This document shows, in pieces, positions 21,316 to 59,798 of a stretch of 64,000 nt of DNA (position 1 is its first letter; each line of letters opens with the position of its first letter). The stretch is from contig CM035360.1 of assembly GCA_020137815.1 (NCBI GenBank), forward strand, positions 4,960,001-5,024,000, in the 5' to 3' direction. A program made the translations under genes and the position numbers. This DNA is from Hormiphora californensis. Taxonomy: Eukaryota; Animalia; Ctenophora. Below the pieces are notes generated by a model, which saw only the letters and a program-made list of their open reading frames with translations, did no database searches and was not told the origin of the DNA.

Positions 21316-24093
<2,778 letters not shown>

Positions 24094-26969: not shown

Positions 26970-28435
26970 TCACGTGAACATGAGCGTAGATTGGGCCCAT
27001 TTTTGTACCGCACTGGGGAGATTGCATGTTTTCACTATGGTCATCAAGTCCATGATATCCACGTTGAGATACATTTGCCGGTAATCCTTCTGAACCTTTC
27101 CCTGCCGGGATGACAAGTTTCGGACAAGTTGGCATTGGGTTAGTTTCTCGACTGCTCGCACCGCCAGATCTCGATTAGGAATGGCGTTCAGCTTACTTCC
27201 TTCAAACGTAACAAACTGAGAGGGAATGGGGTGGTTAGAGGGGATTTATATGATAATAGGGGGCCCTAAGACTTATTGTAGTAGCTACCCTCGCTCCTAT
27301 ATAACTAAACTAACCGTAACCGCACTTTTAGAATTGACGACCCCTCTCCATCAACATGCCCCCAGCCCATAATACAGGTTACCCCAAAACCAGACCCTCC
27401 TCTCACTTAATATGCCCACCAAAATCAAAACCAACTCACCTCCTTGTACTCGTAGAGGACCATCTCCAAGTTGAAGGGTTGGTTAGCATGCCTAGCAGAG
27501 AGACGAGCCATAGCAATCAACAGACTGCACTCCAGCTTACTCAGACTTCTGATCAACACTGCCACCGAATCTTTAAAATAACTGACCAACCGACCCTCAA
27601 ACCCCTCAATGTTGATCTTGGGAGAAGTCGCATCGAGGTCCACTGCAATCCAAAACAAAATGTTTTTGAGAACTTTGATATTCCTGGTGAAGTTATAGAT
27701 ACGCTCCAAATAAACTCGAATCTTGTTCCCCTCCGTATCATTTAGTGTCTTTTTAACCTCTTTACACCACGATGACGATTTGATGGTGGAAGGGCACAAC
27801 AGTTCCTCCACCACCACCATATAACTATCAAATGTGTCAGGTCCGTAGAGGTAGAGCTGGCGATGGGAGAACCGGGATTTAACTCTCTTCTCCATAAGCT
27901 CCATGACATCCTGTCTACATGTTAAACCCACCACCGCAAGAGGTGTCGATTTGGATTGTGATAGATCGAATAAGTTGTACAGGAGGTGTTGGTTATGGTG
28001 CTGGGTAAACAGATCAAATTCATCCAAAATGAACACCACCGATTGGTTGCCCTTGCCCCCGGAGCTCAGGGTTTCCAGGAGAAATGTCATGGTTGCTGCA
28101 AAGGATGTCAAGTTGAGATCCTCCAATTTCTCCTCTGAGCACATCTGTTTAGCAATCTCCTTGAGCGCCTGTTGGTCAGTCTCACAGACATACCCGTTCA
28201 GATAGACAAATACAAAGGATGTGATGCAGTTACTCCTGATTTTATCGAGAGTGTAATTGACGAGGGATGACTTCCCAGAGCCCCGTGGTCCTATGAGGAG
28301 GCAGGAGTTTCCCTCACCGTTATTTATTGTACTGAGCAGCAAATCGTAAAGCTGGGTCTGCACTGATTCACTGTTGATAGGCAGCACGTCTGATGCCCGC
28401 AACTCCTTCAGTATGGCTTCTTTAACCCCGCTCAT
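26970..28435 (-). CDS. ORC4: Origin recognition complex subunit 4 (two coding exons; intron 27216-27439)
   Basis: GEGNSCLLIGPRGSGKS (Walker A), VYLNGY, FILDEFDLF..QHLLYNLFD (Walker B), GLTCRQDVMELMEKRVKSRFSHR, LSKLECSLLIAM..FNLEMVLYEY. Exon 2 ends LPSAVQKWAQSTLMFT*. Confidence 0.95.
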
Positions 28436-28748
28436 AATAGCTACTAGGGAATGTGTGAGGGGTCAGAAGAGATTCTTAGAATAATAATAAAGGTTTGGGG
28501 ATCTCAAGCATAAACTTTAGGCTCGAGAGCCTAGCCCACAGACTACGATATTATCAGGCAGCGTGTTTACGGGGGTATTGAAAACAACCATGGATTATAG
28601 TGAAATCGTATTGATTAAAAAACCATAAAAACTGCATTTAGTGTTCACTGTTCATTGTTCAAATAGAGGTCAGCAAGGAGTATACTGTTCGGGGAACCAT
28701 AACTTGAAACACTAGATTACCACTTACACCCATACATGAAAATAAAAA

Positions 28749-31700
28749 CTAGCCAATGATTCGACTGAGTTTATGCCATTCTCCCCCTCGGTATTTCAAT
28801 GGTCGAGCAGAGCTGGCTGCATCACTTGCATCATCCTCTATCCTAACGTCTGTGGAGTGTCTGTGACAATGTAGGGAAATGTAGTGTTTTGTAAGAAACG
28901 AGATATATCCAAAGGTCTGACCACATCTCGGTATCGGACACACAATTTTAAGTTCTGGACCCCGTTCTCCTCCAACAAATGTACATACAAATGTCTTCTT
29001 TTGTTCGGTGTCTAAGAACCGCCTAACTTTCAGTTGTGGTCTCGATCCGTAGTAGGGCATGTGTCGCTGTGAAAACACGTGCGGCATCTCCAGTTGTGGT
29101 ATTGAGCTGTCTGCCTTTCTTCTACGATCAGGACACAGTCCACAAAAGGAGGTGTACATCCCATACTTATCTCGGATCTTGGAGCACGTGTCCAGGGTAT
29201 GGCCCTCAGAGGGCTTATCTGAGAACACCCGTGGACACGTTGTACACGTGTAAAGGAACTGGAAGTGAAGCATCTGGAAGGCGATGACAACTTTGAAAAC
29301 ATCTTCAACGGCAATCTCATGACTGGTATGGAGATGTTGGTAGAGATTAGTTCGGTACACAAACCCCGTTCTGCAAATCGAACAAACCACCCTCCAGTCC
29401 TTGGAGAAGGGACTCCTCACCGGTATACGGGGGTCTACAAAGTGTTTCAGAGAAATGTGACGTGAGAAACTGATTGGTGAATCCCACAGTGCATTGCAGC
29501 ACCAGTATCTCTCATCACGTGCAAGGTGTTCCAGATACATGTGTTCCAGCATCACAGTGAGGCTGGTATACGACTTTCCACAGATTCTACACAACCCATC
29601 TGTACGGTGCTTCTCGGTCACATGTTCCACTAGTTCCGATTTAGTGGATCTTTGTGCCCTGCACAGGGGACAATCCCAGCGATGATTCCCTTTCACCAGG
29701 AACATACTGGATCGGAAGCAAACGTCTTGGTTCGTTGTCTCCGTGGTGGTAGGTGGTTCCTTCCCATCATCACCACCATCCTTGGTGTCTCTCTCAATGT
29801 TCAGCTCAACAGTATCCCAATCTACTGGTGCAGTTTGTCGAGGAGAGGGAGGAGATTCAGAGATGTCCAGAGCAGAGGTAACAGTAAACTCAACAGGGGT
29901 TTCTTTGGGTTTCTTTTTGGGAGGGCCTTTCTCTTTAGGTGTTGGATCTGGATCAGTAGATGGACAGTCATCTTCCAAATCTATAACAGTGATGCTATTT
30001 TTAGAAGCACAATCGGTATCCCAAGCTACTACTGCACTTGTAATAGGAGGATGGTTCGTTTCTTCAGGTGATTCATCTGGATCATTTGACGGACCAGCAT
30101 CTTCCAAATCCCTGTTTTTAGTGATGCTATTTCGAGGATCGCTATAAGGTAATCCAGTTTTTCTAAGTAGATCGGGATTTGCATTACCCAAGTAAAAATC
30201 ATTTCCAAAATGATCTGAACAGATATATCTCCCAAACACGATATGTTTTAGCGATCGTGATGAAGGAAAACTGCGATATATCCACTCTTTCCATTTGTAA
30301 GTAAACTCATGAAAGAATAACCACTTCCGATGAGTGTGCTTGCTAGTGTCTTTTGAACCAAGTCCACAGATTGAGCAAGATATATTTTCGTCATCGGACG
30401 TTAAAGGAATCCACGATGTCTTCTCCAGTCTCTCTTGCATTGCTTTGTTGAAACCCGGGGCGCTGGGAAAGAGGGTCAAGCTAGGCAACTCTTGTGTTAC
30501 CTCCGATGTCGAGGAATCGCCTATTAGTTCAGCATCAGGTATAGCAGAAGATTTCAGTACCATTTTCCCAGCCTGACTCTTGTGGAATGATTCCAGTCTA
30601 AAATGATCTGAGCAAATCGTTTTTAATACATTATGCTTTAAAAGTGAATTTTTCCAACTGTCTTTAACGTGGTAAAAAGCCAGCCACGGTCTACCAAGTT
30701 TGCTTTTGTCCTTGGAAGCAATACCACAAATAGAGCATTCTTCTTGATGTGTATACTTATAGATGTCTTGTTTATCACTGGAACATGCTTTTACCACTAA
30801 CTTACCATTAACTAACGGCACTGAAAATAAATGTTATTTAAACGTGTATAAACAATAAATGATCACAGCGATCTGAGTGTTATTGGGCAGATGTTTGTTA
30901 CATGCTGTTATTTGAAATGTTGCTCTACAGAAACGGTTCACCTTGGCCTTGCTCAGCCGACCTCTTGAAGGAATGCCATCTTACATCATTACCATACCTG
31001 GAAAGAGAGAGGTGGGATACTGGGATGTTAAGGCCAGAGGGGGGTGTGACGGGGGACATTTAAAAGCAAAAAAGATCTGGGAAATCCTAACCAATCTATG
31101 TCCTTCTTTCTCGCCTTCAGGAATGCAGCCTGTTCATCGTCGGTCAGTTTCCTGATTACAGATCGGTCTGGCCTGTCGTTCGGTTCATCGCTCTCAACTG
31201 ATGACATTTAGCAAAGTAAGAAGACACGATAATTAGAAAATTAGAAAATTTCTATTTGATCAAACAGACTTTAGGCAACCATCGGAAATCCAATTAGTGA
31301 TAGCAATTTGTGAAAAATACCTCGTTCCTTAAAACAGTCAACAGGGTAAGCTGTTTTTGTCAACCGAATCTTGCAATTGGGCTCTACTCTGCCCGGTCGT
31401 ACAAATTGGTCATAAGCAAAGTGATCCGAACAGATATGAATCTTGGATCGCTTGATATTCAAGTTAACTCCACACAGTGTGACCCATTCCTGGCCCCTTG
31501 GTGAATTTTGTCCCGCCGGTAAAGTATAATCTCTATTATAATTTGGAGATGAACGTCGAAGTGGTGGTCGTTCGTTAGGCGGTATCTAAGCGACAGACTG
31601 CTCCTTCATAAAACACTTCATATGACGAAAGCTGTAAAGCTGTTATATTCACACTTTCTGAAGTTCCAGTGGAAGATTCTTAATATTCCGAATGACTTTT

Positions 31701-32019
31701 AACAGGCCAGTCCCCATAGTTACCAATTCAGTTGCCATGGCAACCGTGATATTGACGTTGAAAGGGCGAAAAGAACCACCCGGCGAAGCCGGGTAGGTAA
31801 TCAAAAAGCCCTTACTTGAGGCGCACCCAATGGGTGCGCTAGTACCTGAAAATTGTGTTTGAAATTATCGCAGTCTGGAAATAGGAATAAAGGTATTACA
31901 TGTAAAACAGAAACACAGAAACTAAAATTAAGCTCTTACCTGACGAAACCGCGATTTTCGACTTTTGGCTCAGTGTTCTTGGTCGAATTGTTACTACAGC
32001 CAGGAACATCACAAGACAT
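28749..32019 (-). CDS. Multi-THAP-like plus C2H2 zinc-finger protein (5 exons)
   Basis: Exons at approx. 31940-32019, 31321-31532, 31093-31197, 30942-30997 and 28749-30820. THAP 1 is CDVPGC..LP..W..ICSDHF..AYP. Two further CxxC..W..ICSDHF modules follow, then at least five C2H2-like fingers (e.g. CPLC..HVTEKH, CRIC..HMYLEH, CSIC..HLHTSH, CPIPRC..HYISLH). Confidence 0.85.
31530..31842 (+). mobile_element. Non-autonomous Helitron-like element (313 bp)
   Basis: A|TCTCTATTATAA 5' end and CTAG|T 3' end with no TSD. Subterminal hairpins CCCGGC-GAA-GCCGGG and GCGCACCC-AAT-GGGTGCGC. Excision restores a canonical TTTTCAG acceptor and an in-frame exon. Confidence 0.8.
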
Positions 32020-33212
32020 CAACCACTGTTTATGGGAATCATTAATAGTGGCACTTGGCAGTATGTAAGTTTAATATAATCATTTATATATAGTGTAAAA
32101 TAATGGAGCACGCGCCAACAGCATACGCTTGACATACTCGCTCACTTTCAAAAGTGGTACAGATACACAGCACGAGCATAACAAAACACGAACATACAAG
32201 CACGAACGTTCAAAACACGAACATATCAGTTGCTAGAACATCGGGAATTTTTTACCATCCGGTCAAGAAAATCTGAAAGGGAAATCTGGACTGAGCTTGC
32301 TGTACAGTCGGGCGCGATTATAATCTGGGTGCCTTGCAGCCTATTGACAGGTGCCTGGTGCACGCTAGCAAAAATGAAAAAGAGTACACTTTAAGTTTTT
32401 TTAAGACCGACTTTTTTGGCCAGCGTTAAAATCTGGGTGTTTCGTGAGTGCTGCCAAACGGTTTTTTAGGGTTAGGGCTAAAGTAGGGTTAGGGTTGGGG
32501 TTGGGATTAGGCCTTGATATTTCCTACCAGATAAACTTTAAATTAGCCAAAACGGTTGAGTGGTTTGGCGGTTAGAGCCATTTTAGTGAATAAATTTTTT
32601 TGGCAGCGTGCAGGGCGCGATTATAATGTGGGTGCCTTGCAGCCTGTTTACAGGTGCACGCTACCAAACGAGTACACCGAAACCGACTTTTTCAAACGGC
32701 TATAGCCACACAACCACATGGCCAATTTGAGTAAACTAAACGGTATCTGATAAAGAATCGATAGCCCTAACCGATAACCATAAACCAAACTCTGACCAGA
32801 CCCTAACGGATAGCCCTAACCCGTCGTGCGCTAGAACAACGAATTGTTAGCAATGAAAGGCCCCATATTTTAACGTTTTCCCAGCGTGCACCTATAAACA
32901 GGCCACGAAACACCCAGATCGCAGGGGCGGCTCTGCCATGCGGACGATGCGGACGCGTCCGCATTTTTACTTCGGATCGTGGAGAGAAAAAGAAAAATGA
33001 GGAGCCTCGGAAATGTTCAAGTCGTGCAGAAAAGAAAAGAGGTTTATCATCATCATCATCATCAATTAACATTTAATATACCGCTTTATAGCATACATTG
33101 GTAAGATAACACTAATAAAAGAAAAAACTTTACGGATATCTTCCTGCTTTCAAAAGCGGTTTTACTCTACTAGATCATTAGATTAGAGTTCAGAACTAGT
33201 TTGTATGAATGT

Positions 33213-34182
33213 TCAAGCGTCCCTTGGTGCTTCTACCACCCTCTTTCCACGGATTATGTAGTGGGTTCCAGGGGACCGCTTTATTTTCTCCCTCAGCTCA
33301 ACTACCAGCTGCTTCCGTTCTTTCCGTTCTTCCTCAGTTCTATCGGGAGAAATAAAAACTTTTTCGAACTTATCAGTCCCTTTTAACAGGCATTTCTTTG
33401 ACAGGATCGATATTTGAGCTTCTCTGCTCCTCAGCACAACTTTCACAGGTCTTGCAAATGAGGCCTGCTTTCCCAAGCGCTCCACAGATTTCATTTTCGG
33501 AGCCTCTTCAAGCTCAGTAAAAAGAGACTTTAGTTGAGTTTCAAGCTCAGCACTCTCTTCTAGGCCATGGATGATGATGTTACACCCACGGTCCTCCGAA
33601 GCTGCAACGATAGCCGACTGTATCTTCTTTGGAGCCAGGGCAGTGGCACATTCTTTCTCCAGAACAGATGCAAAACTCTTCAGTTCATGCTGTGCCGTTG
33701 TCTGAACAGCGGTGATTTCAGTTTCTCTCTTTTCGAGTAACTGTCTCTGCATTTTTAGCAGCTCCTCCTGTGCAGCTACCAGATCTCTCTGGGTTTTTAT
33801 TAGCTCTTCGCTTCGTGTTTTGAGCTCCTTCTCCAGCTGGTTTATCTTCAAGGTTTCGTAACCCACTGTTAACAACTGTTCTGAAACTGGGAAGGTATGT
33901 TCCATAAGAATACGGCATGCCTCCTCCACAAGGTCTAAAAGCACTGGCTTGTTCAGAGCATTGAGTTTGTTCCTGGAGGGAACTTTCAGATCATTCCATA
34001 CGTCCTCTGCATGTTGTCCGCACTGCACTAGGCGCGGGTCAACTTCACCGAACCCACCGGTTAGGGTTAATATCTCTTACCCACTCCACCGTTTGTTCTT
34101 GACAGTATCGAATATCTTCCTCTTCAACGTCTGTTTCCCGCAGGTAGATCCGTATATCCATTTCATCGTCGGAGCTTGTCAT
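33213..34182 (-). CDS. LINE (CR1/L2-type) ORF1-like protein; probable frameshift near 34060-34080
   Basis: Coiled coil followed by NIIIHGLEE..VERLGK..RPVKVVL..VFISPDRTEEERKERKQLV, the typical ORF1 RRM/CTD pattern. The ATG at 34182 (MTSSDDEMDI..) is in a different frame from the 271-aa ORF. Confidence 0.75.
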
Positions 34183-34310
34183 TTTCTTGCTGCCCTCCTG
34201 GGCTCTTACATAGACATTTGCTGAAACTCAATAAATAGTTTTACGTTGTAGTTGATGAAAGTTTGAATCAAGAAAAAGAGCCAGAGAATATAAAAGGAAC
34301 ACGTGTGCGG

Positions 34311-34921
34311 CAGGGACGGCGCTCGTGGGTGTCCGGGTGTCTGCGGACACCCAGACCAAAATGACGGAGAGAGAAAAGAAGAAAAATAGAAAAAAACAAA
34401 AAGAATTTGAAAAAAATCGGTGAAAACTGCGAAATTTTGGATTTGCGCGCAGCCGGGTGTCCGCAGCTCTGCCGGACACCCAGGTTCACTGCGCGCACCT
34501 GTAACGCACGGCAGAGCATAAAGAGGGTTCTTTCGCGCGCCACAGTGCATTTTGACGTGACCAGGGTGTCCGGTTCACCCAGAAAATTGTGTGAGCGCGC
34601 GGATGATTTTTTTTCTCGTGATCAGGAAACTTTCATCTTTTTTTCCATTTTTCACAAAAGGAGTTCAGAAATGCTTAAAATCGTTTAAAAGCGCCTCAAA
34701 ATGTCCGAAATTTTCGGGGGGCTTCGCCCCCTCAACCCCCACCGGGGCTTGCAGCCCCTGGACCCTGCCTGCGGGGGCTCTGCCCCATACGCCCCCGCCG
34801 GGGCTGCGCCCCTGGACCCTGCTTGAGGGGGGTTTCACCCCCACGCCCCCTGACCGAGGCTGCCGCCCCTGGCCCCGGACACCCAGGGACTTGCTGGGCC
34901 GAGGGCCCAGCGCCGTCCCTG
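34311..34921. mobile_element. hAT-family MITE
   Basis: TIR CAGGGACGGCGCT / AGCGCCGTCCCTG. Exact 8-bp TSD GTGTGCGG at 34303-10 and 34922-29. Confidence 0.92.
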
Positions 34922-36120
34922 GTGTGCGGGTGTACCATCTAGAAAGAGTTTTTTTTTTACAGAAACACAAAGTGTAAGAAAATATAACGGAACACGACTG
35001 TGCGGTTGTACCATTATAGTGTTGTGTTGGCACACGGAGGAGAAAAAGAGTCAACTTTTCTCAAAATTCTTTTTTTTCTTCTCTTTTTTCTCAAAATTTG
35101 ATGTTTTGAATCGGATTTTTTGTGTAATTTGCGCGCCATACATATTTTTAGCCGTCGCAGTATTTATTTATCCGCGCGCTACGTCAAAATAGCCAATGCG
35201 GGCCGTCCGCAATGGGTATTTCGACGGAACGCGCGAATTAAACATTTTTCGGCCGCATATTGACCAGAGCGAGCAGCTGAAATGCGACTTTGGCAGATTT
35301 TAAAACGCTGGCCTTCCTTTAATTACAATTCATCGATTTTCAATTTTGACGGTTGAGACGGGTTAAGGTTGCCCGTTAGGGTCTGGTTAGGGTTTGGTTT
35401 GGGGTTTTCGGTTAGTGCTATCGATTATCTATCAGATGCCGTTTAGTTTACTCAAATTGGCCATGTGGTTGCGTGGCTATAGCCGTTTGAAAAAAGTCGG
35501 TCTAATTGTTTTTAAGTGTAAATTTTTATTTAAACTGAAGTTTAATAAAAATTAGAATTTGGGTGGCGTGCGCTACACGTTAACAAAACAATTCCGTGCA
35601 CGACTTTGGGGGGTGAACAGTTGAAAAAATGGACTTTACTCTTTTTGGTAGCGCACACCTGTAAACACGCTGCAAGGCACCCATATCATAATCGCGCCCC
35701 AATCCCGCCCTCCTGATCAGTAATCAGGATATATGAATGATCCTGATCAGGCCTGATCAAAATCGGGTTAACTGACCTTCTGAACGCACATTCACGTGCA
35801 GTTTACCACACCCCTAGTTTTTAAACATTGGGCGCCTCTAGTTGGACCTGTTTTGTTTCTCTTCCGGGCTTTGATGGCTTAAAATATACAACAAATCAAT
35901 TTTTTTCCGACTGTTAGGAGTCCCACCAGGTCCGATAACATCGCTTATTTTGCAAAGGATATTTATATTAACGAATAAGCGCTTTAGATTGATCGGGAGG
36001 ACACTTTGTATAAGTTGATCTTTATTATTATTTTCATACAATTTCCACTGTCCCTCAATATACCGTGTCTCTGGTCCCTGACATGTCACTATACATTATA
36101 CAACCCATTTCGTATAGGGT

Positions 36121-59798
<23,678 letters not shown>

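What the first reader, a model, noticed from the sequence alone, without database searches (positions are those of the whole stretch)
31521..31939. Exonic Helitron insertion whose own 5' end offers an in-frame replacement splice acceptor
Seen: deleting 31530-31842 (A|TC...CTAG|T) recreates, on the minus strand, a 94-bp intron ending TTTTCAG followed by G TAT TAT ACT TTA CCG, giving ..FVR-YYTLP in THAP domain 1. The element therefore landed 3 nt inside exon 2. With it present, the old acceptor reads AG/G TAC TAG, an immediate stop. The antisense copy of the element's 5' terminus reads ..AATAG|AGA, contributing exactly 3 nt in place of the 3 nt lost and giving ..FVR-DYTLP in frame. Inference: the element could be spliced out with the intron, so a Helitron shifts an intron boundary at the cost of a single Y-to-D change. 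This would be an introner-like, self-rescuing behaviour. The new acceptor's pyrimidine tract is weak, so a null allele is the alternative.
Basis: partly seen in the sequence, partly recalled or inferred. Interest (0 to 1): 0.85.

Follow-up and report, generated by a model that had tools for sequence, protein, structure and literature searches.

The report
Heterozygous Helitron insertion in comb-jelly exon
A 313-base copy of a very common jumping element sits three bases inside a coding exon on one of the two chromosomes of this animal (likely a comb jelly); it likely breaks that gene copy, and the in-frame replacement splice site at its end is weak and has not been seen in RNA.

Summary
31530-31842 is a non-autonomous Helitron-type element (A|TC...CTAG|T, no duplication) inserted antisense, 3 nt into exon 2 of a THAP/C2H2 gene. 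The empty site stands in three samples from three studies; one sample holds both forms at about 1:1. The family is very high-copy, and other copies have the same ends. The old acceptor is intact and now reads R-Y-stop; the element's AG at 31533 is the only one of 20 in intron plus element that restores the frame. Rescue is unshown: no laid RNA covers intron 1. Scored against 29 acceptors from this window, the new site falls below 28-29 of them in 10 of 10 settings, and below the old site. In-frame geometry is cheap: 119 of 193 exonic AT sites would give it, and roughly 0.1-1 exact 3-for-3 case per genome is expected by chance. The Y-to-D change would hit the position matching conserved THAP1 Phe22. 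Most likely a null or weak allele carried as a heterozygote; minor rescue is possible, with precedent in Tc1::dpy-19. It is not shown to be an introner.

The parts
31530..31842 (+). Non-autonomous Helitron-type element, 313 bp, 5'-TC ... CTAG-3', between A and T, no target duplication
   Evidence: empty-site joints; depth about 1e5 against 55 in flanks; second copy L001
31821..31839 (+). GC-rich terminal hairpin, abutting the terminal CTAG
   Evidence: identical in L001; a loop variant with the stem kept in X8 (table 5c)
31779..31795 (+). Second GC-rich palindrome about 48 nt from the 3' end
   Evidence: identical in L001
31940..32019 (-). Exon 1 of the THAP/C2H2 gene (start codon, first two zinc cysteines of THAP domain 1); donor CAG|GTAAGA at 31939
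   Evidence: reading frame and motifs; not confirmed by RNA
31846..31939 (-). Original 94-nt intron 1 with intact acceptor TTTTCAG
   Evidence: score 2.6; inferred, not seen spliced
31843..31845 (-). First 3 nt of original exon 2 (GTA); with the element they read into an in-frame TAG, and form a possible regenerated donor
31533..31534 (-). Candidate replacement acceptor AG, 3 nt from the element's 5' end; branch-like CTAAC 43 nt upstream
   Evidence: weak score, use untested
31321..31529 (-). Rest of exon 2 (THAP domain 1, W...CSDHF...AYP)
   Evidence: Pfam THAP 25 bits; RNA contig of X10 covers 31494-31321 and splices to 31197
31092..31197 (-). Exon 3
   Evidence: its acceptor seen in X10 RNA contig
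30942..30997 (-). Exon 4
   Evidence: frame and splice motifs
28749..30820 (-). Exon 5: two more THAP domains and C2H2 fingers
   Evidence: homologue P0001 72% identical

Best explanation
A non-autonomous Helitron-type element sits antisense at an A|T site 3 nt inside exon 2 on one chromosome, and it likely makes that allele null or strongly hypomorphic. Shown: the insertion, its ends, the empty allele, both forms in one sample, the intact old acceptor and the stop behind it. Inferred: the spliceosome keeps using the nearer and stronger old acceptor, so the mRNA reads R-Y-stop at codon 29 (whether the element is kept in the exon or partly removed through its internal donors) and would be degraded or give a 28-residue peptide. 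The in-frame AG is a by-product of the TCTCTA terminus read backwards. The allele likely persists because the other chromosome is intact.
For: Empty site in samples S1, S2, S3 (studies P1-P3); filled junction seen only in S1, about 1:1 with the empty one in X4. The empty-allele contig of X2 differs at 2 places in 31460-31529, so it is another haplotype. New acceptor: score -0.9 against 2.6 for the old one; 28 or 29 of 29 native acceptors score above it in 10 of 10 settings; 3 of 9 pyrimidines at -12..-4 against 4-9; purines at both -5 and -4 in 0 of 29 native sites; 165 of 1728 decoy AGs score as high. The intron would grow from 94 to 407 nt; median of 28 introns here is 188, 4 of 28 are longer. 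Chance: 55 + 64 of 193 AT sites in 24 internal exons would be in frame through one of the two terminal AGs; 0.1-1 exact cases per genome expected for 500-3000 copies. Y28 lies four residues before the conserved Pro, as Phe22 does in THAP1 (beta1 F22-K24, P26 invariant: PMC3479173; Phe22 conserved in the human THAPs: bioRxiv 10.1101/2021.02.01.429122).
Against: No RNA shows which acceptor is used on either allele. The old acceptor is itself only 7th from the bottom of 29 and has no YTRAY within 60 nt, whereas the new one has CTAAC at -43 and a 51-nt AG-free zone. With 20-25-nt windows the new AG ranks 1st to 3rd of the element's 16 AGs (7th-8th with 8 nt). A native acceptor scoring -2.4 exists. 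The model rests on 29 hand-delineated sites. In C. elegans Tc1 landing 11 nt from an acceptor yields GU-AG isoforms (PMC12779559). X2 shows only the empty contig at the left flank, and X1 only the empty one at the right flank. The Y28 = F22 match is by counting from the Pro, not from an alignment.
Confidence: 0.7

Rival explanations
1. Partial rescue at this one site: some or most transcripts skip the old acceptor and join exon 1 to the element's AG, giving a full-length Y28D protein. The cause would be chance geometry, not an evolved trait.
For: Only frame-restoring AG of 20; branch-like CTAAC at -43 with no AG between; best of the element's AGs in 3 of 10 scoring settings; decay of stop-bearing mRNA would enrich it; precedent for host donor to element-end splices when Tc1 lands near an acceptor (PMC12779559, Extended Data Fig. 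9 legend).
Against: Weakest or second-weakest against 29 native acceptors; intact competitor 313 nt nearer; Y28D probably harms THAP domain 1; no RNA.
Confidence: 0.19
2. Two-step (recursive) removal: exon 1 first joins the old acceptor, which regenerates a donor CAG|GTACTA, and this is then spliced to the element's AG. The removed piece, 31845-31533, is a 313-nt GT-AG segment shifted 3 nt against the element. The mRNA is the same as in direct rescue.
For: The regenerated donor scores 2.3, inside the native range (-1.1 to 6.3); a native CAG|GTACCT donor exists in the neighbouring eIF3h-like gene.
Against: Needs the same weak acceptor; internal donors at 31815 (2.2) and 31723 (3.1) compete and leave the stop in; the empty allele has an equally scored regenerated donor (2.8) that cannot be used productively; recursive splicing in such short introns was not tested here.
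Confidence: 0.05
3. The family is an evolved introner: antisense copies are regularly spliced out of exons and are enriched at acceptors or at exonic GTA|T sites.
For: Helitron-derived introners exist (about 1% of classified cases, PMC12130899); the terminal CTA that gives the AG is kept in a TCGCTA variant seen in X5 (table 5c).
Against: One case only, heterozygous; expected by chance; no new intron is made here on the direct route; the only other copy held (L001) lies outside a coding frame, upstream of a cofilin-like ORF (family name from my reading).
Confidence: 0.04
4. Assembly artefact: the element was wrongly placed here.
For: The filled junction contig has only 24 letters in the element; the right junction was not listed in any run; X2 shows only the empty form.
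Against: Exact A|T site and exact ends; junction contig with 0 differences at the depth of the empty joint; the two forms lie on different flank haplotypes.
Confidence: 0.02

Closest known systems
Non-autonomous Helitrons (TC/CTAG, A|T target; Helraiser, PMC4778049, passages read)
   Same: 5' TC, 3' CTAG, insertion between A and T without duplication, GC-rich 3' hairpin, no terminal inverted repeats, head-to-tail joints
   Different: Hairpin abuts the terminal CTAG (11 nt upstream in Helraiser), with a second palindrome 48 nt upstream; no RepHel partner could be sought
C. elegans Tc1::dpy-19(n1347): transposon 11 nt from a host acceptor (PMC12779559, Extended Data Fig. 9 legend read)
   Same: Element lands just inside an exon; the upstream host donor can be joined to sites at the far end of the element, about half of the isoforms GU-AG
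   Different: Shown by RNA there, unshown here; Tc1 has inverted repeats and uses SOS splicing too, which needs them; this element has none
Maize ZmGDIalpha-hel (PMC6981192, abstract and passages read)
   Same: A Helitron's splice sites outcompete host sites and change a few residues while the gene stays functional
   Different: Intronic insertion, whole exon replaced, shown in transcripts
Introners, including Helitron-derived ones (PMC12130899, passages read)
   Same: A repeated element in coding sequence with an AG near one end and a co-optable GT near the other
   Different: Introners make new introns at many loci; here one heterozygous site, the donor is the host's, no intron is gained, splicing unshown
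Ds, Tc1 and 412 spliced from exons (Wessler 1987; Rushforth and Anderson 1996; Fridell 1990; Giroux 1994: titles only, seen in reference lists)
   Same: Imprecise removal of an exonic element from RNA using element-borne sites
   Different: Other element classes; RNA evidence exists there

Membership tests
Helitron (non-autonomous) | 5' terminus TC | tested here: met
   31530-31531; joint ends TC..AG; other copies turn to unrelated flanks within 2-6 nt of this end (loose ends)
Helitron (non-autonomous) | 3' terminus CTRR | tested here: met
   CTAG 31839-31842; same end in L001; unrelated flanks behind 31843/31844 in X2, X4, X8, X10
Helitron (non-autonomous) | Insertion between A and T, no target duplication | tested here: met
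   Empty-site joint 31529>31843 in 5 of the 8 runs laid
Helitron (non-autonomous) | GC-rich hairpin about 10-20 nt before the 3' end | tested here: inconclusive
   Hairpin present and conserved but flush with CTAG; second one 48 nt upstream
Helitron (non-autonomous) | No terminal inverted repeats | tested here: met
   Self-blastn finds only two internal palindromes
Helitron (non-autonomous) | Autonomous RepHel partner with the same ends | not testable with these tools
   No genome held
Introner | Removed from mRNA by the spliceosome | tested here: inconclusive
   X10 contig ends at 31494; X22 0 laid; no RNA of a carrier
Introner | Creates a new intron position | tested here: not met
   Direct route only lengthens intron 1 from 94 to 407 nt at the same phase and codon
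Introner | Many intron copies of one family across genes | not testable with these tools
   No genome; one other copy held, not in a coding frame; none elsewhere in the window
THAP-domain protein | C2CH zinc motif with P, W, F, P signature | tested here: met
   Pfam PF05485: 25 bits in the exon-2 frame (cut-off 23.9), 38.9 bits in exon 5; weak THAP1 match in the PDB, E 0.029

The most novel reading that the evidence does not exclude
Read backwards, this family's ends supply an acceptor (TAG|AGA) 3 nt inside one end and complete a donor (GTA-CTAG) 3 nt outside the other whenever it lands in an exonic GTA|T. It would then be a Helitron introner that leaves a 313-nt GT-AG intron offset by one codon. 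At this site, where GTA is the start of exon 2, it would be removed by acceptor replacement or recursive splicing: a segregating, still heterozygous stage of a Helitron turning into intron in an early-branching animal.
Probability: 0.07. Interest if true: 0.7.

Novelty: new member of a known kind. Interest (0 to 1): 0.3.

Why it matters
As it stands: an ordinary but clean example of an active, high-copy Helitron family segregating in a coding exon, in a lineage where the searches here listed no Helitron study. It is a ready allele-specific test, because the carrier has both alleles and flanking SNPs: one RT-PCR decides between stop and rescue. If rescue were shown, it would be a natural case of a Helitron end replacing a host acceptor, and a look at how Helitron introners could start.

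Tried and rejected
No genome for a census. RNA test: X10 (RNA) and X7 (RNA by guess, but its contig keeps introns, so DNA) give no intron-1 junction; X22, the only listed RNA-like run of the organism, gave 0 laid, which is no proof of absence. 8 of 22 listed runs were laid. Copies: 1 hit in metagenome contigs, 0 in viral contigs, 0 in prokaryote genomes, none elsewhere in the window. Rfam: 0. Residue count at Y28: no homologue of exon 2 (0 of 2 candidates), no PDB hit, PDB alignment covers THAP1 31-79 only, MAFFT did not align that stretch, the Atlas gave no answer, and the representative search had not finished; P0001 begins after domain 1. The AG at 31875 scores higher (6.5) than the old acceptor but gives a 65-nt intron, shorter than all 28 modelled, and a stop: rejected as the real acceptor. 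The gene as part of a transposon: rejected, flat single-copy depth. Left out of the splice model: an uncertain 5'-UTR acceptor of the eIF3h-like gene and the introns of the other genes in the window. PMC4528327 and PMC12235515 (passages) added nothing; PMC231018 and PMC45394 are not held. No supplements were read; those of PMC12130899 list introner families by species and may bear on novelty.

Full report
What is there. The window is animal DNA, likely from a ctenophore: a neighbouring oxidoreductase exon is 75% identical to a protein that NCBI names from Bolinopsis; the 'sb/' ids of other hits I recall as gene models of a cydippid, which no call states. On the minus strand lies a five-exon gene (32019-31940, 31845/31529-31321, 31197-31092, 30997-30942, 30820-28749) with three THAP domains and C2H2 fingers. 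Its flanks have flat depth (55 in X1), and an RNA contig in X10 splices intron 2 exactly as modelled. Introns 1, 3 and 4 are inferred from frame and motifs.

The insertion. 31530-31842 begins TC, ends CTAG and lies between A and T. Contigs that skip exactly these 313 bases stand in X1, X5, X7 and X2, X4: 5 of 8 runs laid, three samples, three studies. X4 also has a contig identical to the filled left junction (31480-31553, depth 250.8; empty joint 242.7), and the empty contig of X2 differs from the window at 2 places next to the site, so that sample is heterozygous. Caveats: only 24 letters of that contig lie in the element (the tool asks for 31), no right-junction contig was listed, and X2 shows only the empty form; contigs drop variants. 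Depth over the element's ends is 1.1-1.7e5 against 55. That is no copy number, but it means hundreds to thousands of copies. Other copies leave the window sequence at the same ends, L001 has the same last 34 bases in another flank and is 82% alike over 257 columns, and near head-to-tail joints occur in X1, X4, X5 and X8. With the hallmarks given for Helraiser (PMC4778049, passages) this is a non-autonomous Helitron-type element. The hairpin sits unusually close to the end, and no autonomous partner could be sought.

What it does to the gene. The element is antisense, 3 nt into exon 2. The old acceptor is untouched and now reads R27-Y28-stop. Of 20 AGs in intron 1 and the element only 31533 restores the frame (841 aa, D for Y28); two later exonic AGs do so with larger losses. 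Internal donors at 31815 and 31723 could remove most of the element, but they leave the stop in. A productive mRNA therefore needs the old acceptor to be skipped, or its regenerated donor to be re-used.

How good is the new acceptor? I delineated 29 acceptors and 28 donors in four genes of the window; the three neighbouring genes splice to open frames and one was guided by tblastn. In a 20-nt matrix the new site scores -0.9, the old one 2.6, and 165 of 1728 decoy AGs reach the new score. Over 10 settings, 28 or 29 of the 29 native sites score higher; the new site has 3 of 9 pyrimidines at -12..-4 (native 4-9) and purines at -5 and -4 (0 of 29). On the other side: it has CTAAC at -43 and a 51-nt AG-free zone, the old acceptor has no such motif within 60 nt (14 of 29 native sites do), it ranks first among the element's 16 AGs in 3 of 10 settings, and one native site scores lower still. 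The model is small and cannot exclude use.

Is the frame match remarkable? No. Read backwards, a TCTCTA start has AG 3 nt and 1 nt from the end, so 119 of 193 AT sites in 24 internal exons would give an in-frame product by frame alone; 1 of 193 gives the exact 3-for-3 swap. Per insertion that is 2-3.5 in 10,000, or 0.1-1 per genome for 500-3000 copies.

The cost of rescue. Y28 is four residues before the conserved Pro. In human THAP1 that position is Phe22, the first residue of strand beta1 (PMC3479173, passages), reported as conserved in the human THAP proteins (bioRxiv 10.1101/2021.02.01.429122, passages). The match is by counting; no alignment or residue count could be had. An aspartate there likely harms domain 1; domains 2 and 3 would be intact.

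RNA. None of the three RNA-labelled runs listed tests intron 1: X7 is DNA-like, X10 stops at 31494, X22 gave nothing. None comes from the carrier sample.

Comparison. It works like known exonic insertions near a splice site: for Tc1 11 nt from an acceptor in dpy-19, the upstream donor is joined to sites at the far end of the element and about half of the isoforms are GU-AG (PMC12779559, figure legend). Helitron sites replacing host sites are known from maize ZmGDIalpha-hel (PMC6981192), and Helitron introners are on record (PMC12130899). It fails introner membership on intron gain, and the other features could not be tested. Eight searches (top 1-20 listings seen) showed no paper on a Helitron terminus replacing an acceptor or on ctenophore Helitrons; the library lacks most subscription papers.

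Verdict. Observation confirmed; insertion real and polymorphic; most likely a loss-of-function allele (0.70); some rescue, direct or recursive, about 0.24; an evolved introner 0.04. New member of a known kind, interest 0.3, with a cheap decisive test.

Noticed in passing
window 31530-31842 in run X8 (organism B): The element family is present at high depth in a second organism label (838 contigs 99% or more alike) while neither flank nor exons are laid at 96%; shared recent activity or horizontal transfer, or a labelling effect.
   Followed up: partly
window 31842>31530 joints, runs X1, X4, X5, X8: Near head-to-tail joints of the element, some at single-copy depth (441 in X5) and some with 23-34-nt spacers: tandem copies or circles.
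   Followed up: no
window 32310-35699: Nested inverted repeats (arms 44-138 nt) enclose an intronless 287-aa coiled-coil ORF (33213-34076, minus) that looks to me like a LINE ORF1-type protein; Pfam gave nothing above cut-off. Lies just upstream of the THAP gene.
   Followed up: partly
window about 32060-32150: Another repeated element begins in the gene's upstream region (depth 3e3-4.5e4 in X1, X5).
   Followed up: no
window 23238-23716: 479-bp hairpin element (203-nt arms, 94%) in an intron of the eIF3h-like gene; an 11-nt word that includes the donor recurs on both sides of it.
   Followed up: no
window 31875: An intronic AG 29 nt upstream of the real acceptor scores higher than it (6.5 against 2.6) but leads to a stop; a minimum intron length may exclude it.
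   Followed up: partly
window 27425-28462: ORC4-like gene with one 345-codon open frame, close behind the THAP gene, in a region of otherwise short exons.
   Followed up: no
window 37131-55548: 18.4-kb intron of the PYROXD2-like gene holds GPCR-like open frames (53616-54799, same strand) (family name from my reading).
   Followed up: no
L001 18-500 (minus view): The second copy lies upstream of an intronless cofilin-like ORF (name from my reading of the frame).
   Followed up: no
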